A stretch of DNA of 64,000 bases, taken from the NCBI GenBank assembly GCA_963695545.1, contig OY968796.1, positions 800,001 through 864,000 on the forward strand, in the 5' to 3' direction. Position 1 is the first letter of the stretch. Each line of letters starts with the position of its first letter. This stretch comes from Terriglobia bacterium. GTDB taxonomy: Bacteria; Acidobacteriota; Terriglobia; Acidiferrales; UBA7541. Under the pieces are notes generated by a model. It searched no databases. It was given only the letters and a program-made list of their open reading frames with translations, and was not told the DNA's origin. A program made the translations under genes and the position numbers. Shown in pieces: positions 1,385 to 57,435 of this stretch.

Positions 1385-1560
1385 CCCCCGCCCGGTACCC
1401 AGCTCGTAAAAAATTGAAAATAATGGACTTCCAGGAAAAGTATGCCTTAGGAGTGCGCAATTGACTGAAATAAAAGGCCTTAGCTGGAGGTACATGTGCC
1501 ACGCTTTCAGTGATACGCGCAGGCTTCTGGAATCTCCTGAAAATAAATAACGTAGAAGGG
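1385..1560. repeat. Dispersed AT-rich intergenic element, copy A (most diverged)
   Basis: Shares CCCGGTACC, CTTCCAGGAAAAG, GAGTGCG and CTGAAAATAAAT with copy B in the same order. Confidence 0.7.
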
Positions 1561-1621
1561 CAAGAAAGGGATTCCACAGAGAAGGCGGGGATTTCGAATA
1601 TCTTTTCGAGTGCCGCCCTTA

Positions 1622-1650
1622 AGCCTAACACAAACCTAGCTCCGAGTCAA
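1622..1650 (-). promoter_or_regulatory. Sigma70-type promoter of element copy A
   Basis: Minus strand TTGACT (1650-1645), 17 nt, TAGGCT (1627-1622) with extended TGn. Confidence 0.55.
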
Positions 1651-1746
1651 GGGGGGGGCGTACACAAAAAATAGTGAGTTTGTCGAGGCTTCCTCGTATG
1701 GCGGACCCGTGCCTGCCGACTGACAATCGTAGCGGGGGCCCTCTCC

Positions 1747-22609: not shown

Positions 22610-22801
22610 CTACTGCTCGGCGCCGTCCGCCTTGATATGAATTCGACTCCCCGTTTGTTGGTTCACGATGAAGCACTCGCCGCCCGAGGTGGCGGCTAGC
22701 TGTTTCACCCGTGCCTTGGCGGCTTCCAGCGTTGCCGTCGATTCCAGCCACAGGACGGTGCCGCGCGGCTCCGCTTTGAAAATGTCGAACGGATCAGTCA
22801 C
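22610..22801 (-). CDS. Small hypothetical protein (63 aa)
   Basis: GTG start overlapping the upstream TGA (GTGA); globular-looking sequence FDIFKAEPRGTVLWLES. Confidence 0.6.
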   Translation of the reverse strand: MTDPFDIFKAEPRGTVLWLESTATLEAAKARVKQLAATSGGECFIVNQQTGSRIHIKADGAEQ

Positions 22802-22992
22802 GATTTGTTGACCTCCGCGATTGACCGCGCCCGCTTCCAACTGGTGCCCGCCTCCAAGAGGAACTGCGCCGATTTCTTTTGCGTGGTCTCCCGGAGCTGC
22901 TCGCTCGCCTTCTGGCGCACGGCTTCTGTTTCCACGATCGCCGTCACTGTCTCCAGCGCCACCTGCTCGAAATGTGTCTTCTGCTGAAGCAT
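22798..22992 (-). CDS. Small hypothetical protein (64 aa)
   Basis: SD GAAGGAGG before ATG; KTHFEQV N-terminus; coupled to downstream ORF. Confidence 0.6.
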   Translation of the reverse strand: MLQQKTHFEQVALETVTAIVETEAVRQKASEQLRETTQKKSAQFLLEAGTSWKRARSIAEVNKS

Positions 22993-23169
22993 TGCGACCC
23001 TCCTTCAAACATTCCGACGCTAACAGGCCCAAGGTCATACGGGTCAGATCTTTAAAAGTCCGAACTTTGTCCTTAGCCTGACTTCAGCCGCTCGCTTGGC
23101 GATGCGGGGGCGGTCTCGCTCCGAGCCGGGCCACCCCTGCACACCTGTTTTAGGGAACGATTATTTTAC

Positions 23170-23198
23170 TTGCACGGCTTGCTACGACCGGATACGAT
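23170..23198 (+). promoter_or_regulatory. Sigma70-type promoter
   Basis: TTGCAC, 17 nt, TACGAT upstream of ATG 23239. Confidence 0.45.
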
Positions 23199-23238
23199 AA
23201 CGCCACGTTTGTTTAGCGTCTCATCGACGGAGGATGAA

Positions 23239-23523
23239 ATGGGAACCGCTCAAGCCAAAAGCGCGCCGCTGCACTTCAAGACCATGATTCAGTCCGATGT
23301 GCCGCAAGGTCGAAACGGCAAGCACAAATTGATCGTCACCACGATCTTGAAAGACCTCGACGGTCTGAAGACTGGCTCGGCAATTAAGGTCCCATTGGCT
23401 CAATTGATGCAGTCCAAAGAAAAGGTTCGTTCCGCGCTGAATCGCGCGACTCGGAAAAGCGGACGTAAAGTAGCTACCGCCAGCGACGCGACGTTCCTGT
23501 ATGTTTGGAACATCAGCGACTAG
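23239..23523 (+). CDS. Small basic hypothetical protein, possibly nucleic-acid binding
   Basis: SD GGAGGA; 94 aa, Lys/Arg-rich (KVRSALNRATRK). Confidence 0.7.
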   Translation: MGTAQAKSAPLHFKTMIQSDVPQGRNGKHKLIVTTILKDLDGLKTGSAIKVPLAQLMQSKEKVRSALNRATRKSGRKVATASDATFLYVWNISD

Positions 23524-23676
23524 CGGTCTCGCTTTGCGATTCCCCCAACCGTTCATCTTGAAAGCTACATCTAGGTTCTGATTGACCTGAGTGTCGAAAA
23601 CTCGCCCGCGAATCGTGCGCCCGCAACTTGACTTCGTCTGAAAGCGACGCCTAGACTCAAAAATTCGGCTTCGCCT

Positions 23677-24312
23677 ATGGAACATACTGAGGGCAAGATC
23701 GTCGTTTTGGGCGTCACCGGCGCTTCGGGAGCGATCTTGGCGCAGGCCGCGCTGCGCAAACTCGAAGCCGATACGCGCGTCTCTCGCATTCACTTGGTGC
23801 TCACCGAAACCGGCGCGCGTCTGATCGCGCACGAACTCGGCATCGTTGCCGGCGATGCGAAAGACATGCCGTCGCTGCTCGCCGGCGCCCGCGCCATGAA
23901 GACCGATCTTCTGCCGAATAAAGATGTCGGCGCCGCGATCGCGTCCGGCAGCTACGCCGTAGACGCGATGCTCGTGATCCCCTGCTCGATGGGAGCGCTG
24001 GCGGCGATTGCCACCGGCATAAGCTCCGATCTTCTGTCCCGCGCTGCCGACGTGTGCCTCAAAGAAAACCGGCGCCTGGTGCTCTGCCTGCGCGAGACGC
24101 CCTTTAGCCGCATCCACATCGAAAACATGTTGCGCGCGCAGCAAGCCGGGGCCGTGATCATGCCGGTGATTCCCGCGTTCTACGATCAACCGAAAACGCT
24201 TGACGACGTGGTCGCGCAATTCGTCAATCGCGCGCTCGCGCAAATCGGATTGCCACAACTGGACGCGTTCCGCTGGGAAGGCCAGGGCAAAGGCACGGCG
24301 CGAGGGGCGTGA
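23677..24312 (+). CDS. ubiX: Flavin prenyltransferase UbiX family
   Basis: GVTGASG, IASGS, PCSMG, RAADVCLKE, RETP, PAFY. Confidence 0.95.
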   Translation: MEHTEGKIVVLGVTGASGAILAQAALRKLEADTRVSRIHLVLTETGARLIAHELGIVAGDAKDMPSLLAGARAMKTDLLPNKDVGAAIASGSYAVDAMLVIPCSMGALAAIATGISSDLLSRAADVCLKENRRLVLCLRETPFSRIHIENMLRAQQAGAVIMPVIPAFYDQPKTLDDVVAQFVNRALAQIGLPQLDAFRWEGQGKGTARGA

Positions 24313-25220
24313 GCGTGAATCGCATCCGCCATGCCGGCCGGCAGGCAGGCACCGTGCTCGAAATGATCAAGTTCGAGCACTCGATCTTCACGCTTCCCTT
24401 CGCGCTCACCGCCGCGCTTCTGGCCGCGCGCTATCCGCACGCTCCAGGCGCCGTCGCGGGCTGGCCAACGGCGCGCCAATTTTTCTGGATCGTTGTGGCC
24501 ATGGTCGGCGCGCGCTCCGCCGCGATGACCGTGAACCGCATCGCGGACCTGAAGTACGATCGCGACAATCCCCGCACTGCGCAAAGGGCGCTCGTGACCG
24601 GAGCGCTTTCGGTCGGCTTCGCCTGGGGCTTCGCGCTTGTGGCTTCGGCCGTTTTGGTGGTGGCCGCGTGGCAACTCAATCGTCTCGCGCTCGAACTTTC
24701 TCCGGTCGCTCTGGCGCTGGTGTTCTTTTATTCCTACACCAAGCGATTCACCGCGTGGTCGCATCTTGTGCTGGGTCTGTGCATGGGAATTTCGCCCGCC
24801 GCGGCATGGATCGCCGTGGCCGGTTCGTTCGATCCGCGTATTCTGTTGCTGTGCGCCGCCGTCACGCTTTGGGGCGGCGGCTTCGACGTGCTCTACGCCT
24901 GCCAGGATGTCGAATTCGATCGCCGCGTTGGCCTCTACTCGATTCCGAAGCGCTTCGGCGTCGCGCGCGCTCTGGACATCGCGCGCGGCATGCATGTCCT
25001 GATGACGCTGCTGCTCGTGTGCCTCGCGGCCGCGTTTCATCTGGCGTGGCCGGCGTGGGCCGGAATCGCGGTGATCGCGGCGCTTTTGACTTACGAACAT
25101 TCTCTGGTGCGCGCCAACAATCTCACTCGCGTCAATGCTGCGTTTTTCACGGTGAACGGCTATATTAGTATTCTGTTCTTTCTGTTCTGGGGCGCGGCCG
25201 TATTGGTCGGCCGCCGGTAG
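24309..25220 (+). CDS. mqnP: UbiA-like polyprenyltransferase of the futalosine pathway
   Basis: IKFEHSIF.LPFA, NRIAD..YD..NPRT, YSYTKRFT, FDVLYACQD; between ubiX and mqnE. Confidence 0.85.
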   Translation: MSVNRIRHAGRQAGTVLEMIKFEHSIFTLPFALTAALLAARYPHAPGAVAGWPTARQFFWIVVAMVGARSAAMTVNRIADLKYDRDNPRTAQRALVTGALSVGFAWGFALVASAVLVVAAWQLNRLALELSPVALALVFFYSYTKRFTAWSHLVLGLCMGISPAAAWIAVAGSFDPRILLLCAAVTLWGGGFDVLYACQDVEFDRRVGLYSIPKRFGVARALDIARGMHVLMTLLLVCLAAAFHLAWPAWAGIAVIAALLTYEHSLVRANNLTRVNAAFFTVNGYISILFFLFWGAAVLVGRR

Positions 25221-25235
25221 TCGGCACGCACGAAA

Positions 25236-26387
25236 ATGACGGCCGAACTTCAAATCTCGGATGCGCGTCTCAAACCGATCGCCGACAAAATTCTCGCCGG
25301 AGAACGCCTCGATTTCGACGACGGCATCGCGCTCTATCGCACGAACGATCTGCTGGCCCTCGGCTGGCTCGCGAACAGCGTGCGCGAAAAACGCCACGGC
25401 AGCATCTGCTACTTCAACGTGAATCGCCACATCAATCCCACCAACGTCTGCGTGGCCCACTGCCGCTTGTGCGCTTTCGGCCGCAGCCCGGACGCGCCGG
25501 GCGCCTACACGTTTGCTCTCGAAGAAATCTACCAGCGTGCCGAAGCCGGCATGCGCGAAGGCGCCACGGAATTTCACATGGTCGGCGGGCTGCATCCGGA
25601 TTTGCCGTTTGAATATTTTCTCGATCTGATGCGCGGCTTGAAGCAGCGCTGCCCCAGCGTGCATTTGAAAGCCTTCACCATGGTTGAGGTCGGCTACTTC
25701 GCGCGCATCGCCAAGCTTTCGATTCGCGACACGCTCCTTGCGCTCAAGCAGGCCGGAGTCGATTCCCTGCCCGGCGGCGGCGCCGAAATTTTCCATCCGC
25801 GCGTGCGCAAAATAATTTGCGATCATAAAGTCAGCGGCCAGCAGTGGCTTTCGATCGCGCGCACCGCGCATCAGATCGGCCTGCGCTCAAACGCGACCAT
25901 GCTGTATGGCCACATCGAAACCGAAGAAGAGCGCGTCGGGCATTTGCTTCTGCTGCGCGAATTGCAGGACGAAACGCACGGCTTCGTGGCTTTTATTCCG
26001 CTCGCGTTTCATCCGGAAAATACCGCGCTCGCGCATCTTCCGAAGCCCACGGCGTTTGCTGACATAAAAGCTATCGCCGTCTCGCGGCTCCTACTGGATA
26101 ATTTCGATCACATCAAAGCGTATTGGATCATGCTCACGCCGAAAGTCGCGCAGATCGCGCTGCGATTCGGCGCCGACGATCTTGACGGCACAGTCGTCGA
26201 AGAAAAGATTTATCACGATGCCGGCGCCACAACCGAGCAGTTCACTTCGCGCGCCGATCTCGAGCGCCTGATCCGCGAAGCCGGCCGCACGCCCGTCGAG
26301 CGCGACACGCTCTATCGCCCCGTGGACCGCTCGAAAATGCCGCCGCCCGGCCCGCGCCCCGACGTCACGCTCACGCTGAACGTTTAA
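25236..26387 (+). CDS. mqnE: Aminofutalosine synthase (radical SAM)
   Basis: NRHINPTNVCVAHCRLCAF, PGGGAEIF, NATMLYGHIET, HIKAYW, ERDTLY. Confidence 0.92.
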   Translation: MTAELQISDARLKPIADKILAGERLDFDDGIALYRTNDLLALGWLANSVREKRHGSICYFNVNRHINPTNVCVAHCRLCAFGRSPDAPGAYTFALEEIYQRAEAGMREGATEFHMVGGLHPDLPFEYFLDLMRGLKQRCPSVHLKAFTMVEVGYFARIAKLSIRDTLLALKQAGVDSLPGGGAEIFHPRVRKIICDHKVSGQQWLSIARTAHQIGLRSNATMLYGHIETEEERVGHLLLLRELQDETHGFVAFIPLAFHPENTALAHLPKPTAFADIKAIAVSRLLLDNFDHIKAYWIMLTPKVAQIALRFGADDLDGTVVEEKIYHDAGATTEQFTSRADLERLIREAGRTPVERDTLYRPVDRSKMPPPGPRPDVTLTLNV

Positions 26388-26616
26388 TCTCACAATCCTC
26401 GCATTGCGTTCGCCGCGCTCCGCGCATCCGCCACGCATTCTCGGCACGCGCAAATACTCATTGACGCCGCACGCCCGCTTGGTGCAATCTCCGGCCATCG
26501 CTTCCTCCAAGCCGCATCGATGACCGCGTGATCTGGTTTGCGGAAATTCGCTTGGAAGAATCGATCCCGTTCGCGCTCAATTTTAGAAACTCGACCCCCT
26601 GTGGAGGTGGGTACGC

Positions 26617-27561
26617 ATGAAGCGATGTCTTTTCCCCGCACTCGCTGCGCTTTCCCTGTGCCTTGCGGCCTCGGTAACCGTCCGAGCCCAAGACGCCGGC
26701 TCGATGCCAAACATGGCATCCGGCCAGATGTCCAGCCGGAATTCCAGCATGCCCGCGCCGCCGAACATCCTGATGATCGAGACGGACAACATCAAGCCCT
26801 ACAGCACGACTCCGTACGATAAAGTCGCCGCGGAGTACGTCGCCGTCGCGCGAAAGGCCAATCTGCCCGGCAGCGTAATCGCCATGGAAGCGCTCTCCGG
26901 CCCGAACCGCGCGCAGTACCTGTTCGCCCATGATTCCTTCGACGACATGCAACAGCAAGAAGACATCACCATGAAGGACGCCACCGCGACGGCGGCATTC
27001 GCGCACCTCGACAGCCTCGAGAACCCGTACGTCGCCGAAGTGCACAACGTGATCTGGCACTACCGCGAAGACCTCAGCAACAACGCCGCGGGCGCCGACA
27101 TTGCGCACTGCCGCTACTGGGAAACAATCGTCTTCCACATCAAGCCCGGCCACGACCAGCAGTTTGAGGAAAATGCAAAGATGTACCGCGATGCCTACGC
27201 CAAGATCGGCGTCAACCTCCCTTGGGCGACCTTTGAAGCCGAAATGGGCGCCACCGATTCCTACGTCGTGATTCTTCCGATGAAGTCGCTTAAGGAAGAA
27301 GACGAGGGACTCGCGCGCCAAAAAACGGTCATGGACGCGTTCGGCAGCGACGGCATGCATCACCTCGAGGAGACCGCCCGCGACGCTTACGCCAGTGTGG
27401 AAGATACACTCTGGGAAGTGAATCCCAAGACCAGCTACGTGACCAAGGAAATGATGGCCGCCAATCCGGACTTCTGGAATCCGAAACCCGCGGCCCCGAT
27501 GACCAAGGGCACAATGGTCAAGCCGGCGATGAAGCCCGCGCCGAAACCTGCCACTCCGTAG
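26617..27561 (+). CDS. Secreted hypothetical protein, probably two ferredoxin-like (NIPSNAP-like) domains
   Basis: Signal peptide; two similar halves (NIKPY... and HIKPGH...); SD GGAGG; downstream terminator. Confidence 0.7.
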   Translation: MKRCLFPALAALSLCLAASVTVRAQDAGSMPNMASGQMSSRNSSMPAPPNILMIETDNIKPYSTTPYDKVAAEYVAVARKANLPGSVIAMEALSGPNRAQYLFAHDSFDDMQQQEDITMKDATATAAFAHLDSLENPYVAEVHNVIWHYREDLSNNAAGADIAHCRYWETIVFHIKPGHDQQFEENAKMYRDAYAKIGVNLPWATFEAEMGATDSYVVILPMKSLKEEDEGLARQKTVMDAFGSDGMHHLEETARDAYASVEDTLWEVNPKTSYVTKEMMAANPDFWNPKPAAPMTKGTMVKPAMKPAPKPATP

Positions 27562-27588
27562 GCGAAAATTATTTCTAACCAGCATCGG

Positions 27589-27625
27589 GGGCGTCTCGAT
27601 CTCTCGGGGCGCCCTTTCTTATTTT
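27589..27625 (+). terminator. Rho-independent terminator
   Basis: 11-bp stem GGGCGTCTCGA/TCGGGGCGCCC (two G-U pairs), 4-nt loop, then TTTCTTATTTT; between convergent genes. Confidence 0.75.
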
Positions 27626-27672
27626 CACGTCTCATTTCACGCGCGACTCCGAACGGGAAAAACGCCGCATCG

Positions 27673-29040
27673 CTATGCGCACACCGCGCCCGATGCATCC
27701 CGCGCGTTGCGGCGCGGCAGAAAGGCTTGCGCCACGAGTAGCGCGTAAAACGGCGCATACGTCAGCCATTGCAGCGCGGTATCGAATCGCCATTCGCCCA
27801 AAATGCGATAAGGAATCAAAACGTTATACGAGAGACACACGAGCACCGTGAGCAGCAGCCAAGCTGTGTTCGGAAAAAAACAGAGCAGCGGCACGATCCA
27901 CGTGAAGTACCAGGGATAACCATTCGGCGCGAAGAGCAGGATCGCGCCCACGACAAGAAACGCCGCGCGCGCCGGATCCGCCCGCCGCGCCGCCAGCCAC
28001 AGCGCGAGACTCGCCACAACCACGCGTCCCGCCATCACCGCGAAACCATGCGAGCCCGAAGCCCATCGCAACACCGAATACAAGCTCGCATTGTTGTTCT
28101 GCCAAGCTGGCAAATAATATGCGTGCATAGTGCGCGCAAAGTCCGCCCATCCCGCGCGATAGGGCCACGCACACGCGAGGCCGACGGCTGCGGCAGCGGC
28201 CGCGGCGATCCATCCGCGCAGCCGACGCGGCCATCCCGCGCGCACGACCCATAGCGGCAGCAGCGCCGCCGGGAAGAATTTGGCCATGGCCCCGGCCGCC
28301 AGCGCCATCGTTGACACGATGGGACGCCTCCGTATAATCAGGATGGCGGCGACTAACGCGGCCACGGCCAGCGAATCGTTGTGGCCGCTGCCGGCGAATT
28401 CGACGATCACCAGGGGGTTCCAGGCGTAAATGGCCAAACGGGAAATCCTTTGGCCGGTCTCGCGGACCCAGACCCCGAGCATTCCGACGACAGCCAGGTC
28501 GGCTAGAACGAATGGTAATTTGAAGCCGACCGGCCCAGGCAACAAGCGCCACGTCGCGCGGAACACGAGCTCCAATAGAGGCGGATAGACGGTGGGCAAT
28601 TCGTGGGCGGGCATGATCTGCCATCCGCCGGCCGAGGAATTGCGCAAAGATTCGACCCGTGGGTCGTCCGGGCGCATCGAATAGGGGTTCCAGCCGGCGG
28701 CTTGGACTTGGGCGTCCCAGCGATAGCGGTAGAGGTCGGTTGAGAGCGTGGGCGCGAGCGGCAGAAGCGTCAGGCGAAAGGCCAGCGCGCCGAGCAGCAC
28801 GAGAAAGAATCCGGCGCGGGAGTCACGCAAATGTTCGAGCGCGTACAACGCGATGAAATAAACGACGCCAGCCGCAAGCGCGAGCGAGATGAAGCCGACG
28901 ACGTGCGCGGAGAGATCGCGCAAGCGCGCGACGCGGAGGAAGATGGCTTCCAGCGCGGCGAGCAGAAGCAAAGCCGCGACGGCTTGACCTCGCGGGAGGT
29001 TCGGCGCGTGGCCGGGCAAGCGATGATCGGAATTCAGCAC
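27673..29040 (-). CDS. Integral membrane GT-C glycosyltransferase (GT87-like)
   Basis: STDLYRYRWD, TVYPP, YAWNPL..EFAGSGHND, PWY; many TM helices. Confidence 0.85.
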   Translation of the reverse strand: MLNSDHRLPGHAPNLPRGQAVAALLLLAALEAIFLRVARLRDLSAHVVGFISLALAAGVVYFIALYALEHLRDSRAGFFLVLLGALAFRLTLLPLAPTLSTDLYRYRWDAQVQAAGWNPYSMRPDDPRVESLRNSSAGGWQIMPAHELPTVYPPLLELVFRATWRLLPGPVGFKLPFVLADLAVVGMLGVWVRETGQRISRLAIYAWNPLVIVEFAGSGHNDSLAVAALVAAILIIRRRPIVSTMALAAGAMAKFFPAALLPLWVVRAGWPRRLRGWIAAAAAAAVGLACAWPYRAGWADFARTMHAYYLPAWQNNNASLYSVLRWASGSHGFAVMAGRVVVASLALWLAARRADPARAAFLVVGAILLFAPNGYPWYFTWIVPLLCFFPNTAWLLLTVLVCLSYNVLIPYRILGEWRFDTALQWLTYAPFYALLVAQAFLPRRNARDASGAVCA

Positions 29041-29090
29041 GAAATGGCCGGTCCGCGCGGCCTGCGATTTTCAGGAGCAGCGTAGCGACG

Positions 29091-30731
29091 ATGAGACATC
29101 TGTTTCATCTCGGAGTTCTGGCGGCCGCGCAAGGGCCGCTGGCGAACTATTGGTCGAAGCTGACTGACGCGAATCGCAATCCGTTCCGCGGCCTTTATCA
29201 GATGAATGCGTTCGACCTGTGGCTGACGATCCCGTACTTCACGGTGTTGATCGTGCTCGCGGCGTTCGGGCTGCACCGCTACTGGTTGGTGTACCACTAT
29301 TTCAAGAATCGCCGGAATGTTCCCGGCCCGCCACCCGCGGTTGAACATTGGCCCAAGGTTACCATACAGCTTCCGGTCTATAACGAGCGCTACGTGGTCG
29401 AGCGATTGATCGATTCGATCGCGCGCTTCGATTATCCGCGCGAACTGCTCGAGGTGCAGGTGCTTGACGATTCCACCGACGAATCGCAGGAAGTGGCGCG
29501 CGATTGCGTGGAGCGTTACCGCGCACTGGGATTTCCGATCCGCTATATGCATCGCGACGACCGCACGGGATTCAAGGCCGGCGCGCTGGCGTACGGACTT
29601 GAAAGCGCCAGCGGCGAATTCATCGCCATTTTCGACGCCGATTTCGTGCCCAGCCCGGATTTTCTGCTGCGCACGCTGCCTTATTTTTCGACCGACCCGA
29701 AAATCGCCATGGTGCAAACGCGCTGGACGTATCTGAATCGCGATTACTCCGCGCTTACCGAAGTCGAATCCATTTTGCTCGACGGCCATTTCATTATCGA
29801 GCACGGCGCGCGCTCGCGCAGCGGCGTCTTCTTCAATTTCAACGGCACAGCCGGCGTGTGGCGGCGCACGGCGATCGACGATGCCTGCGGCTGGCAGCAC
29901 GACACGCTCACCGAGGACACGGACCTTTCTTATCGCGCGCAACTGCGCGGCTGGCGCTTCACGTATCTGCCCGACGTCGAATGTCCCTCCGAGCTGCCCG
30001 TGGAAATGAATTCGTTCAAGACGCAACAGGCGCGCTGGGCCAAGGGGCTGATCCAAACCGCGAAGAAAATCCTGCCGCGCGTGTTGCGCTCGGACCAACC
30101 CACGGCGGTGAAGGCCGAAGCCGTGATGCATTTGACGGCGAACATCAGCTACCCGCTGATGGTGGTGCTCTCAACGCTGCTGCTGCCGGCCATGATCGTG
30201 CGGTTCTATCAAGGCTGGTTCCAGATGATGCTGATCGATTTGCCGCTGTTCATGGCGTCGAGCTTTTCGATTTCGGGATTTTATCTTTCGGCGCAACGCG
30301 CGCTTTATCCGCGCACCTGGTACCGCTCGATCCTTTACATGCCATTCGTGATGGCCGTGGGCATCGGTCTTTCGGTGCGCAATGCCAAGGCCGTGCTGGA
30401 AGCGCTGTTCGGCGTGAAATCGGATTTCGCGCGCACACCGAAATACAGCATTGAAGGACAGTCCGGCAGTTGGCGCAAAAAATCATATCGCAATCGCGCG
30501 GGCTGGATGCCGTATCTGGAAGTCTTGCTCGGCCTGTATTTCGGGGCGACGGTGCTGTACGCGATCCAGAACGAAAGTTACATCACGGTTCCGTTCCTGC
30601 TGCTCTTCGTTTGGGGTTATCTCTACACCGGATTCATGTCGCTCGGGCAAGTGTGGTTCGAGCGCTTCCGTCTGGGCACGGATGACGCGGCCGAAACCCG
30701 CCCGGCCGCGACCGGCGTCCCGAGTTTCTAG
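29091..30731 (+). CDS. Processive GT2 glycosyltransferase (cellulose-synthase-like)
   Basis: QLPVYNE, DDSTD, GFKAGAL, FDADF, TED, QQARW (D,D,D,QxxRW) with flanking TM helices. Confidence 0.92.
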   Translation: MRHLFHLGVLAAAQGPLANYWSKLTDANRNPFRGLYQMNAFDLWLTIPYFTVLIVLAAFGLHRYWLVYHYFKNRRNVPGPPPAVEHWPKVTIQLPVYNERYVVERLIDSIARFDYPRELLEVQVLDDSTDESQEVARDCVERYRALGFPIRYMHRDDRTGFKAGALAYGLESASGEFIAIFDADFVPSPDFLLRTLPYFSTDPKIAMVQTRWTYLNRDYSALTEVESILLDGHFIIEHGARSRSGVFFNFNGTAGVWRRTAIDDACGWQHDTLTEDTDLSYRAQLRGWRFTYLPDVECPSELPVEMNSFKTQQARWAKGLIQTAKKILPRVLRSDQPTAVKAEAVMHLTANISYPLMVVLSTLLLPAMIVRFYQGWFQMMLIDLPLFMASSFSISGFYLSAQRALYPRTWYRSILYMPFVMAVGIGLSVRNAKAVLEALFGVKSDFARTPKYSIEGQSGSWRKKSYRNRAGWMPYLEVLLGLYFGATVLYAIQNESYITVPFLLLFVWGYLYTGFMSLGQVWFERFRLGTDDAAETRPAATGVPSF

Positions 30732-30753
30732 CGGCAAAATCCCCGGAAGAGTG

Positions 30754-30920
30754 CGGGGGCTATATACACCCCCGGTACCAAATTCATAAAATGATGAAAT
30801 CAAAGGGCTTCCAGGAAAAGAGTGCGGATGAGTGTGAAAATACGCGTGTTGATATCGCCTGGTTTCAATGAGATGCGCACTCTTTTGCAATGAACTGAAA
30901 ATAAATGGTTTGCAGGGGCG
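30754..30920. repeat. Dispersed AT-rich intergenic element, copy B
   Basis: AAAAGAGTGCGGATGAGTGTGAAAA (25 nt) and TGCGCACTCTTTTGCAATG identical to copy C. Confidence 0.85.
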
Positions 30921-31036
30921 ATTGGGGACAGAAAGTTGCGGGTTGACGAGTCGTTGCGCCTCGGCGGCTGGCCGGAGTCTAGCGAGAGCGAGGGTGAAAC
31001 TCGACGGCGAGAATGCGTGTTCGCAAGTCACAGCCG

Positions 31037-31066
31037 AGAATAACACGAAGCATACTGATACGTCAA
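31037..31066 (-). promoter_or_regulatory. Sigma70-type promoter of element copy B
   Basis: TTGACG, 18 nt, TATTCT with extended TGn; no convincing same-strand gene downstream. Confidence 0.55.
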
Positions 31067-31085
31067 CGTATATTTCTATTGTATT

Positions 31086-31120
31086 CGAATAGAATGGGTG
31101 AAAAATACCCATTCTATTCG
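31086..31120. repeat. Perfect 14-bp inverted repeat with 7-nt spacer
   Basis: CGAATAGAATGGGT-GAAAAAT-ACCCATTCTATTCG. Confidence 0.85.
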
Positions 31121-56848: not shown

Positions 56849-56971
56849 GTGTTGGGTGTGAACTTGATTCTGGCACACGCTGGTTGCGAGCGCCACAGAG
56901 CCAGCGCGGGCTACGTCCTGCGAGCGGGTTCGAGGGGGTTTGCGCGTCACGGATGTCTCTCGATGAGCGGA

Positions 56972-57136
56972 GGGGTATATATACCCCCGGTATGTTTTTG
57001 CGAAAGTACTGAAACTACAGGGGATGCAGCAAAAGAGTGCGGATGAGTGTGAAAACGCAGGGAGTTAAAAATCAAGCTGTTCAATGAGTTGCGCACTCTT
57101 TTGCAATGGATTGAAAACAAAGGGGGTTGCGGGGGC
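56972..57136. repeat. Dispersed AT-rich intergenic element, copy C
   Basis: Perfect palindrome GGGGTATATATACCCC (56972-56987); GCAAAAGAGTGCG / CGCACTCTTTTGC inverted repeat; homologous to copies A and B. Confidence 0.85.
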
Positions 57137-57242
57137 ACTTTGCGCGTGTCAAACGCGCATTTCGGATGCCAAGGCTGTGAGGGGCGCGAGTGGGGGACCG
57201 GACGTGATGACAATTCGAAATGTACAAGGGCGAACATATACA

Positions 57243-57271
57243 ACCATAGCATATGTAAATTGTAATGTCAA
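57243..57271 (-). promoter_or_regulatory. Sigma70-type promoter of element copy C (may also drive the M16 peptidase)
   Basis: TTGACA, 17 nt, TATGGT with extended TGn. Confidence 0.65.
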
Positions 57272-57435
57272 TTAGTTTGTGAGTATTCGAAACAATTTCC
57301 ACAGGCACGCTTTGCTTACGGACCGGATGCATTTCCCAGAATCGCGCTATATCCAAGAAGTGGCGAGAGCAAGTCCGCCACCAATGTATAATCCCGTTTC
57401 CAATGGTGAGTTCCGCGCTGCGCGGGGAGGAATGA

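What the first reader, a model, noticed from the sequence alone, without database searches (positions are those of the whole stretch)
30754..31066. Dispersed intergenic element family: three co-oriented copies in 64 kb with a shared modular layout
Seen: three AT-rich intergenic segments (A ~1385-1650, B ~30754-31066, C ~56972-57271) are homologous and in the same orientation, although their flanking genes are tandem, convergent and divergent respectively. Common order on the + strand: a GC-rich end containing CCCGGTA (palindromic in B and C), box1 TGAAA, AAAAGAGTGCG, box2, an inverted TTCA box, CGCACTCTTTT, box3, an unconserved ~70-120 nt stretch, then a minus-strand sigma70 promoter. B and C share a 25-nt exact match; A and B share CTTCCAGGAAAAG. 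No transposase, matching terminal repeats or target duplications are visible. Inference: an uncharacterised multicopy system, either a non-autonomous mobile unit, a chromosome-organising nucleoprotein site, or a multicopy ncRNA. If this density held genome-wide there would be many dozens of copies. I recall similar TGAAAACAAAGG-type repeats in Acidobacteria but know of no functional description.
Basis: partly seen in the sequence, partly recalled or inferred. Interest (0 to 1): 0.85.

Follow-up and report, generated by a model that had tools for sequence, protein, structure and literature searches.

The report
Dispersed packaging-start cassettes imprinting chromosome skew
A soil bacterium's chromosome carries 113 evenly spaced copies of a small promoter-plus-repeat cassette, the strand bias of its DNA flips just downstream of most copies, and the cassettes likely act as start sites where an inherited virus-like machine would cut and package host DNA for transfer to other cells.

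Summary
Confirmed and larger than reported. The three segments belong to a family of 113 cassettes in this 4.16-Mb genome (relatives named Ca. Acidiferrales), spaced far more evenly than chance (CV 0.56 vs 1.01) with no replichore bias. Each has a sigma70-type promoter, a fixed-position start codon, a frame kept open through helically phased AT-rich boxes (the DNA is conserved, not the peptide) and a G-run end. Four copies continue into a zinc-finger gene. In three, its tail matches the probable small terminase of a single-copy, vertically inherited phage-head cluster, and the tails co-vary across three lineages. Four-fold-site GC skew rises from -0.27 to +0.15 over about 8 kb starting at the cassette end; 67 of 79 origin-like flips lie there. 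A separate, weak oriC signature persists. Not a MITE or RNA. Best reading (0.45): pac-type start sites for a gene-transfer-agent-like system, with the skew written by recombination-primed outward forks. Main rival (0.30): phage-type run-off origins; the cluster also encodes an O-like initiator domain. Against both: a relative lacking the cluster keeps cassettes and flips. This scan had noted the family in other windows of this genome; I retested those claims.

The parts
30757..31095 (-). Cassette B (whole), transcribed on the minus strand
   Evidence: core hit E 3.8e-54; promoter module; same site and orientation in congener G003 (L028)
31082..31091 (.). B: TATTCGAATA palindrome, operator-like (106 of 124 genomic ATTCGAAT lie within 200 nt of a cassette start)
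31037..31066 (-). B: sigma70-type promoter, -35 TTGACG (31066-31061) and extended -10 TGtTATTCT
   Evidence: activity not measured
30483..31031 (-). B: leader ORF from a GTG 11 nt after the start of the -10 box (leaderless position), 182 codons, open through all boxes
30795..30910 (.). B: helically phased box array (TGAAA 30795, 30835, 30896; AAAAGAGTGCG 30816 with its inverted copy at 30876; IHF-like site near 30863)
30757..30777 (-). B: G-run end motif (TACCGGGGGTGTA on the transcribed strand), where the skew ramp begins; predicted packaging cut region
   Evidence: ramp start 0 kb (5-95%: -1 to +1 kb) across 79 isolated copies
56972..57305 (-). Cassette C (whole): DnaA-box-like ATTTCCACA 57295-57303, TATTCGAA 57284, -35 57271-57266, ATG 57237, boxes 57010-57125, end motif 56972-56992
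   Evidence: shared site in congener G004 (L046); skew jump 0.53
56947..57237 (-). C: leader ORF, 96 codons, reading the boxes partly in a different frame from B
1385..1655 (-). Cassette A, a longer-spacer variant: -35 TTGACT 1650-1645, GCG instead of a start codon at 1616, end motif 1391
   Evidence: (E 4e-25); skew jump 0.41
22700..30757 (.). Zone downstream of B over which the family-average skew ramp runs (B's own jump is modest, 0.19)

Best explanation
The segments are copies of a 113-member promoter-leader-box-G-run cassette that marks where local strand bias flips, and they likely serve as pac-type start sites at which the terminase of the family's inherited phage-head cluster would cut and fill small particles with about 8 kb of downstream host DNA. 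Shown: the anatomy, the even spacing, the skew ramp starting at the cassette end, a C-loss composition signature unlike that of oriC, and the zinc-finger (ZnF) gene with a terS-like tail behind four copies. Inferred: (1) host or cluster proteins wrap the phased boxes; (2) TerS, or the cassette's own ZnF adaptor, recruits TerL; (3) in a recipient cell both ends of the fragment invade the chromosome and prime forks running outwards, which exposes the strands running 5'-3' away from the fragment centre and writes the minus-to-plus skew flip; (4) because every fragment begins in a cassette, cassettes convert one another and shuffle modules, and selection for coverage spaces them out. How a cassette reaches a new site is not resolved.
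For: Layout: complete cassettes in several genera read promoter - boxes - G-run - ZnF gene, the order of the SPP1 pac region, whose repeats span the promoters and the start of terS (PMC4737164, passages). terS by position: in 8 of 10 loci the orthologue of the 92-aa gene lies 0.3-1.2 kb upstream of TerL on the same strand. Tails match within lineages: G000 VIWDMPGPDRE in both proteins, G003 VWDIPGPDP, G400 LDLPRP, and genus g233 IEY(Q/E)(F/L)VS..PRP. The own-genome terS ranks 1-3 of 14 for 9 of 18 scored ZnF proteins with own scores of 35 or more (a tenth tailed one, L019, was mis-cut there and ranked 1). The capsid gene is mostly single-copy, often 74-92% identical, and found in 86 of 121 family genomes. 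It sits at a syntenic locus in two genera and is nearly family-restricted (26 of 36 family genomes; 2 weaker hits among the other 164 genomes of the class). The one outgroup sample has neither sawtooth skew nor cassettes. The skew ramp starts at the G-run end (0 kb; -1 to +1) and ends at 8 kb (6.5-10), within the 4-14 kb range of GTA fragments (PMC2697382, passages). Signature: on the G-rich strand C is depleted relative to G, T and A (4-fold G/C 0.49/0.32 vs 0.31/0.51), whereas the oriC axis shows only a T excess at two-fold sites and no G/C skew, so this is not ordinary replication. Cassettes at orthologous sites are not each other's closest copies (median rank 23 of 91), and promoter and core are only loosely linked (Mantel 0.12).
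Against: G018 has the cluster deleted from its syntenic locus (flanks 1.7 kb apart) and no terminase over cut-off with three Pfam models. It still holds 11 ZnF matches, near-identical cassette promoters, and clear flips at about 6 of 10 sampled sites. G473 likewise has cassettes and no capsid match or terminase-family hit. G481 (complete; no match to this cluster's capsid or TerL, though it has one unrelated Terminase_6N hit) and G470 show flips with no cassette detected in 400-kb samples. 109 of 113 cassettes have no ZnF gene, and 8 of the 18 scored ZnF proteins lack the terS-like tail. An open frame through the boxes, even when the next gene is opposite (25 of 26), is easier to explain by transcriptional activation of an origin. 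No particle, cut site or binding was observed. The ends-out fork step is recalled from E. coli work, and I found only general D-loop-primed replication in print (PMC7326373, passages).
Confidence: 0.45

Rival explanations
1. Phage-type run-off origins. Each cassette is a lambda-ori-like site (iteron-like phased boxes inside a transcribed, translated frame, with IHF- and DnaA-like sites), fired episodically by the O-like initiator of the domesticated cluster. This gives local bidirectional amplification that may feed the particles, as in Bartonella.
For: The first operon of the cluster has a 345-aa gene matching phrog_1408 'replication initiation protein' (E 3e-4). 15 of 35 sampled homologues hit replication-initiator families, 6 of them strongly through C-terminal O-like or DnaD-like domains. 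The gene is found in 4 of 4 congeners and 36 of 121 family genomes. The frame is kept open in 92 of 97 copies whatever follows. Skew is N-shaped across several whole 55-76 kb gaps and over about 180 kb in G481. 38 of 179 TTTCCACA/TATCCACA sites lie within 200 nt of a cassette start, and the only cluster of such sites away from cassettes is the dnaA promoter. The lambda ori comparison is recalled.
Against: The flip is a ramp from 0 to 8 kb on one side, not a step at the boxes. The initiator keeps only its N-terminal ~130 aa conserved, has no cassette-like boxes inside it, and was not found in genera g14 (0 of 10) or g233 (0 of 7), which have cassettes. Presence of the DnaA-like box does not predict jump size (36 vs 77 copies, P 0.46). 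It does not explain the terS-like tail.
Confidence: 0.3
2. Host-run alternative origins. The cassettes (promoter plus G-run, possibly forming an R-loop) start host replication, so the chromosome is routinely copied from many sites.
For: 67 of 79 origin-like minima follow a cassette (null 23+-4; 6 with orientation flipped). There is no G/C flip at dnaA. Flips persist in genomes without the cluster. G-runs on the transcribed strand end nearly all cassette types seen.
Against: A single-oriC signature is intact: two-fold T excess peaks exactly at dnaA and reverses near 3.46 Mb, KOPS-like octamers follow that axis (75%), and 53.5% of coding DNA is on its leading strand. The cassette signature differs in kind. 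Genes converge on the flips instead of running with the putative forks (46.5% on the G-rich strand). An R-loop would expose the transcribed strand just downstream, but that strand is C-rich for the first 3 kb.
Confidence: 0.12
3. A selfish non-autonomous element (MITE-like) that inserts beside flips made by something else.
For: Clean empty sites at 5 orthologous loci; flips without a detected cassette in G470, G481 and parts of G001; some G015 cassettes have no flip.
Against: No terminal inverted repeats (longest inverted run 5.2 vs 5.4 control); no recent burst in G000 (2 of 91 above 90% identity); 23 of 37 congener copies share site and orientation; stops are purged in whichever frame is read (7 vs 161 and 164); the ramp starts at the cassette end.
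Confidence: 0.08
4. Chromosome-organising protein site, multicopy ncRNA or peptide gene.
For: Even spacing, phased boxes, a strong-looking promoter.
Against: No covarying RNA structure, no Rfam hit, three reading phases used (35/28/19 of 82); none of these explains a directional skew ramp.
Confidence: 0.05

Closest known systems
SPP1/SF6 pac region (PMC4737164, passages)
   Same: Direct-repeat boxes and bendable DNA spanning a promoter and leading into a small-terminase(-like) gene
   Different: One site in a phage genome, versus 113 chromosomal copies, most without the gene; boxes unrelated in sequence as far as seen; cutting not shown here
P22 pac-like sites of the Salmonella chromosome (PMC11260489, passages)
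   Same: Oriented chromosomal sites proposed to direct packaging of downstream host DNA; conserved between strains
   Different: Nine 17-nt look-alikes serving an infecting phage, versus ~110 engineered-looking 300-nt cassettes with promoter and leader tied to a resident cluster
Gene transfer agents RcGTA/DsGTA (PMC6854486, passages; PMC5786225, abstract)
   Same: Single-copy, vertically inherited head and terminase genes; TerS C-terminus constrained by TerL binding
   Different: Known GTAs have no identified start sequence (DsGTA peaks lack a motif); here a defined, dispersed cassette is proposed; particles not shown
Bartonella BaGTA with run-off replication (PMC2697382, passages)
   Same: Domesticated phage head genes plus a phage-derived replication function acting on host DNA
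   Different: One phage origin amplifying one region, versus ~110 sites covering the chromosome
Skew N-domains of the human genome (PMC3320577, passages)
   Same: Abrupt minus-to-plus jumps with linear decline between them
   Different: Megabase eukaryotic replication units, versus ~37-kb units in a bacterium that keeps an oriC signature, each jump tied to an oriented cassette
SaPI/PICI satellites with their own TerS (recalled)
   Same: A TerS-like protein beside its own cis site that could redirect a helper TerL
   Different: No integrase, att site or replication module seen in the cassettes; hundred-fold dispersal; host DNA rather than the element would be the main cargo

Membership tests
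MITE / IS end | Terminal inverted repeats | tested here: not met
   longest inverted run between ends 5.2 nt vs 5.4 control over the 102 copies with a located end
MITE / IS end | Target-site duplication | tested here: inconclusive
   5 empty orthologous sites found, but flanks are only ~80% identical and ends cannot be fixed
MITE / IS end | Near-identical recent copies | tested here: not met
   median nearest-neighbour identity 78%, 2 of 91 above 90% in G000; G018 and G473 do have near-identical promoters
Rfam ncRNA | Match to a family or a covarying structure | tested here: not met
   0 hits at gathering score in the window, 0 at E<=1 on copy B; 0 of 8 predicted pairs with compensatory change in 9 copies
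Gene transfer agent | Single-copy, vertically inherited head/terminase cluster | tested here: met
Gene transfer agent | Particles that hold host DNA and transfer it | not testable with these tools
   only four DNA runs kept as contigs hold the stretch
Gene transfer agent | No replication genes, sequence-independent packaging (PMC6854486) | tested here: inconclusive
   an O-like initiator N-terminal domain is in the cluster; packaging specificity is the untested proposal
pac site (SPP1/P22 type) | Repeat boxes at promoter/start of a terS gene | tested here: inconclusive
   layout met in complete cassettes, but the gene is a ZnF protein with a terS-like tail; no fold match to solved TerS
pac site (SPP1/P22 type) | Terminase cleavage and directional headful packaging | not testable with these tools
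   needs particle DNA
Bacterial oriC | Cluster of DnaA boxes plus unwinding element | tested here: not met
   best 8/9 match in 45 of 109 promoters, none perfect; unrelated to jump size
Lambdoid phage origin | Iterons inside the cognate initiator gene | tested here: not met
   no cassette-model hit or repeat array in the O-like gene; the boxes lie in a non-conserved leader frame instead
SaPI/PICI satellite | Integrase, att sites and own replicon | tested here: not met
   cassettes are ~300-700 nt with at most one ZnF gene

The most novel reading that the evidence does not exclude
A whole family of soil Acidobacteria has turned a phage packaging signal into a chromosome-wide grid. About 100 oriented cassettes per genome, some with their own terminase-mimic adaptor, start site-specific gene transfer so often that the oriC-independent DNA synthesis it causes, not normal replication, is the main writer of strand composition: a programmed bacterial 'sex' system with fixed start sites that cuts the chromosome into eukaryote-like skew N-domains.
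Probability: 0.4. Interest if true: 0.95.

Novelty: categorically new. Interest (0 to 1): 0.88.

Why it matters
Whatever the mechanism, a bacterial chromosome in which 113 oriented cassettes account for 45% of the per-kilobase variance in synonymous GC skew, on top of a normal oriC signature, is not something my searches found described. If these are packaging starts, they would be defined start sites for a GTA-like system (none were known according to PMC6854486) and would give an abundant, mostly uncultured soil lineage a predictable map of gene flow. If they are origins, they bear on whether bacteria use many origins. Either way one sequencing experiment decides. The skew test also offers a way to screen other genomes for hidden systems of this kind.

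Tried and rejected
Fixed ~25-kb reach of the skew: suggested by gap averages, withdrawn after single gaps proved N-shaped across 55-76 kb. Cassettes as rearrangement breakpoints: synteny broke across 10 of 29 cassettes vs 6 of 25 other large gaps, no excess. Flip set by the first convergent gene junction: not supported (rho 0.21, P 0.10; 20% within 1 kb vs 17% null; n 61). Gene-orientation artefact: excluded, since both gene strands and intergenic DNA show the flip. Reversed polarity (termini or break resection), considered because A exceeds T on the G-rich strand: two-fold sites point to C loss on that strand, so I kept the origin-like reading. Whether the evenly spaced thing is the flip rather than the cassette: CV minimum at +2 to +3 kb, P 0.058, undecided. 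Fold searches of the ZnF model (pLDDT 71): no significant match. TerL plus ZnF tail co-folding: no answer. Single-sequence model of the initiator: unusable. ZnF not found in viral contigs; copy B not found in phage or plasmid records. Runs: no RNA holder listed. Contigs of four runs from one study match long pieces of the region with 0-1 differences, but gave no usable coverage or empty-site signal. The genus-specific promoter pattern is at background in 350 other genomes of the phylum, which says little because other genera use other sequences. The looser pattern is noisy. Literature searches that found no description of this element, skew pattern or cluster. No supplements were read; subscription papers are not covered.

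Full report
1. Observation. The three segments are real homologues in the stated order and orientation. The window lies at 800,001-864,000 of a one-contig 4.16-Mb genome; close protein hits are named Candidatus Acidiferrales. A model seeded with A, B and C converged on 91 core copies, with none in the reversed genome in the last two rounds. A model of the promoter end found 109 copies: 87 joined to a core and 22 not, most of these with a second box type ending in the same G-run. With 4 promoter-less cores the total is 113. Two promoter copies are separated from their ends by what look like IS insertions (label recalled). Orientation is even (46/45 of 91) and unrelated to the replichores (56 of 113). 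Spacing is strongly over-dispersed: CV 0.56 against 1.01+-0.09 for draws from 828 intergenic gaps, with 0 of 20,000 draws as low. Gene calls come from my own simple caller (3,252 genes).

2. Anatomy, read on the transcribed strand. First comes a TTCGAA palindrome, with a DnaA-box-like site nearby in about a third of copies. Then TTGACA, an extended -10 box, and ATG or GTG 11 nt after the start of the -10 box in 103 of 109 copies. A variable leader leads into AT-rich boxes and a G-run. The frame from that start is free of stops up to the G-run in 77 of 82 type-1 and 15 of 15 type-2 copies with an ATG/GTG start and a located end (other frames 8 and 13 of 82; stops 7 vs 161 and 164). The phase at the end is 35/28/19, so translation through the boxes is conserved but the peptide is not. 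This holds when the next gene is opposite (25 of 26). Spacers between boxes change in steps of about 10 bp (38/39, 47-49, 57; 69/70, 79, 91; 9, 19), and IHF-like sites occur 1.1 times per core vs 0.14 in shuffles (consensus recalled). This is the pattern of a wrapped DNA-protein complex. No RNA family or covarying structure was found, and no terminal inverted repeat.

3. Skew. Earlier notes of this scan pointed to skew flips and a terminase link; I tested both. At four-fold sites, corrected for coding strand, GC skew on the transcribed strand is about -0.26 upstream (z -12) and +0.14 at 10-12 kb downstream (z +7.6). A kernel placed on the cassettes explains 45% of per-kilobase variance. 67 of 79 independently called minima lie -1 to +10 kb downstream of a cassette (null 23+-4; 6 if orientation is flipped). 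89 of 113 copies have a jump above 0.15 (29% of random sites), and 17 are below 0.08. Both gene strands and intergenic DNA show it. In 79 isolated copies the rise begins at the G-run (0 kb, 5-95% -1 to +1) and ends at 8 kb (6.5-10). Several long gaps decline linearly from end to end, which overturns my first reading of a fixed reach.

4. oriC is still there. There is no G/C flip at dnaA and no global four-fold G/C skew. But the T excess at two-fold sites peaks when the origin is placed at dnaA and reverses near 3.46 Mb, and KOPS-like octamers follow that axis. Around cassettes the G-rich strand is depleted of C relative to G, T and A, a much stronger and different signature, read here as long-lived single-stranded DNA (inference from composition, not from observed mutations). 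Genes tend to face the flips (z -3 to -5 at +2 to +8 kb; 710 of 1,527 genes on the G-rich strand). One 320-kb sample from another family of the class has weak skew of either kind and no cassette. Four 400-kb samples from the family all show flips (G001 5, G015 5, G470 3, G481 3).

5. Phage-derived cluster. At 3.384-3.419 Mb lie a large terminase, a major capsid protein and a lytic transglycosylase. The capsid gene is found in 86 of 121 family genomes, mostly once, and at the same locus in G400. It is rare outside the family. A 92-aa gene has orthologues just upstream of TerL in 8 of 10 loci, so it is terS by position. The Atlas's nearest named family for it and for the ZnF C-terminal part is DUF5681 (a weak lead). 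Four cassettes run straight into a C-x8-C-x10-C-x2-H zinc-finger gene, a family found in 53 of 121 genomes, often in several copies, and preceded by promoter-box-G-run cassettes of other sequence in other genera. One ZnF subfamily ends in a tail that tracks the same genome's terS in three lineages; the other has no such tail. Kin are not independent, so this is three observations, not eighteen. Late in the work I found that the cluster's first operon encodes the N-terminal domain of phage O-like replication initiators, present in 36 of 121 genomes.

6. Dynamics. Of 40 congener loci chosen by similarity to copy B, 38 had a mappable downstream gene within 1.5 kb. 24 have a cassette at the same site and orientation in this genome, or 23 of 37 without one match made through a ZnF paralogue. 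Two of them carry the other box type here, five sites are cleanly empty, and one keeps an operator remnant. Cassettes at the same site are not each other's closest relatives (median rank 23 of 91; 1 of 21 closer to its orthologue than to a paralogue in its own genome). That points to conversion or to co-evolution with a genome-specific binder.

7. Mechanism. A linear fragment from the G-run to about +8 kb, recombining with both ends pointing outwards, predicts the observed profile: a plateau upstream, a ramp beginning at the cassette end, and a weaker positive side. It also fits the terS tail and the SPP1-like layout, so I commit to packaging starts (0.45). The open leader, DnaA-like site, long N-shaped reach and O-like gene fit run-off origins (0.30); the two could be coupled as in Bartonella. 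The strongest result against either is G018. It has lost the cluster at its locus, lacks the initiator, and still has homogeneous cassettes with flips. G481 has flips with neither cluster nor detected cassettes. Recent loss, receipt of particles from relatives, or a host-run mechanism (0.12) could each explain this; I could not tell them apart.

8. Literature. Passages read: PMC5900883, PMC11260489, PMC3174227 (notes a lack of strand bias in Solibacter), PMC4737164, PMC6854486, PMC2697382, PMC3320577, PMC7326373. Abstract only: PMC5786225. The other papers were seen as search listings. Searches returned no description of the cassette, the sawtooth skew or the cluster. Lambda ori architecture, SaPI terS redirection, consensus motifs and ends-out replication after transduction are recalled.

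9. Verdict. Real, functional-looking, not a member of any family tested. Interest 0.88.

Noticed in passing
G000:C1:3423031 (-), outside the window: A cassette lies about 4.6 kb upstream of the O-like initiator gene and points into the phage-derived cluster; skew flips near 3,418 kb.
   Followed up: partly
G000:C1:3400048-3401192; L010 8049-9226: An IS3-like pair of ORFs (label recalled) sits between the probable portal and capsid genes of the cluster, and terS has moved downstream of the capsid gene in G000; TerL is also not beside it in G003.
   Followed up: no
G000:C1:1953153, 1772942, 2132735, 3046598: Some leader frames run in frame into the downstream host gene, so the cassette promoter could make N-terminally extended host proteins.
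   Followed up: no
G470 sample, C1 about 2,349,960 and 2,571,800 (L108, L119): A different 90-nt AT-rich repeat (84% identical pair) lies 2 kb before one skew flip in a genome with the capsid gene but no ZnF match; possibly another cassette family.
   Followed up: no
G001 sample, C5 about 248,600 and 281,000: Short IHF-like AT-rich stretches 8-10 kb from two flips that have no detected cassette.
   Followed up: no
G000:C1 near 491, 750, 949, 1885, 2064, 2237, 3153 kb: Origin-like skew minima inside long gaps with no cassette; 750 kb is near an empty site that keeps an operator remnant at 757.2 kb.
   Followed up: partly
G000:C1 upstream of cassettes at 1200862, 1474349, 1387172, 3011763, 3537799: Transposase-like genes (labels recalled from sequence) often sit on the promoter side of cassettes.
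   Followed up: no
G000:C1:1364875-1364905: The dnaA upstream region has four tightly packed boxes of the ATATCCACA/ATTTCCACA type, the same variants that occur in cassette promoters; no canonical multi-box oriC was found.
   Followed up: partly
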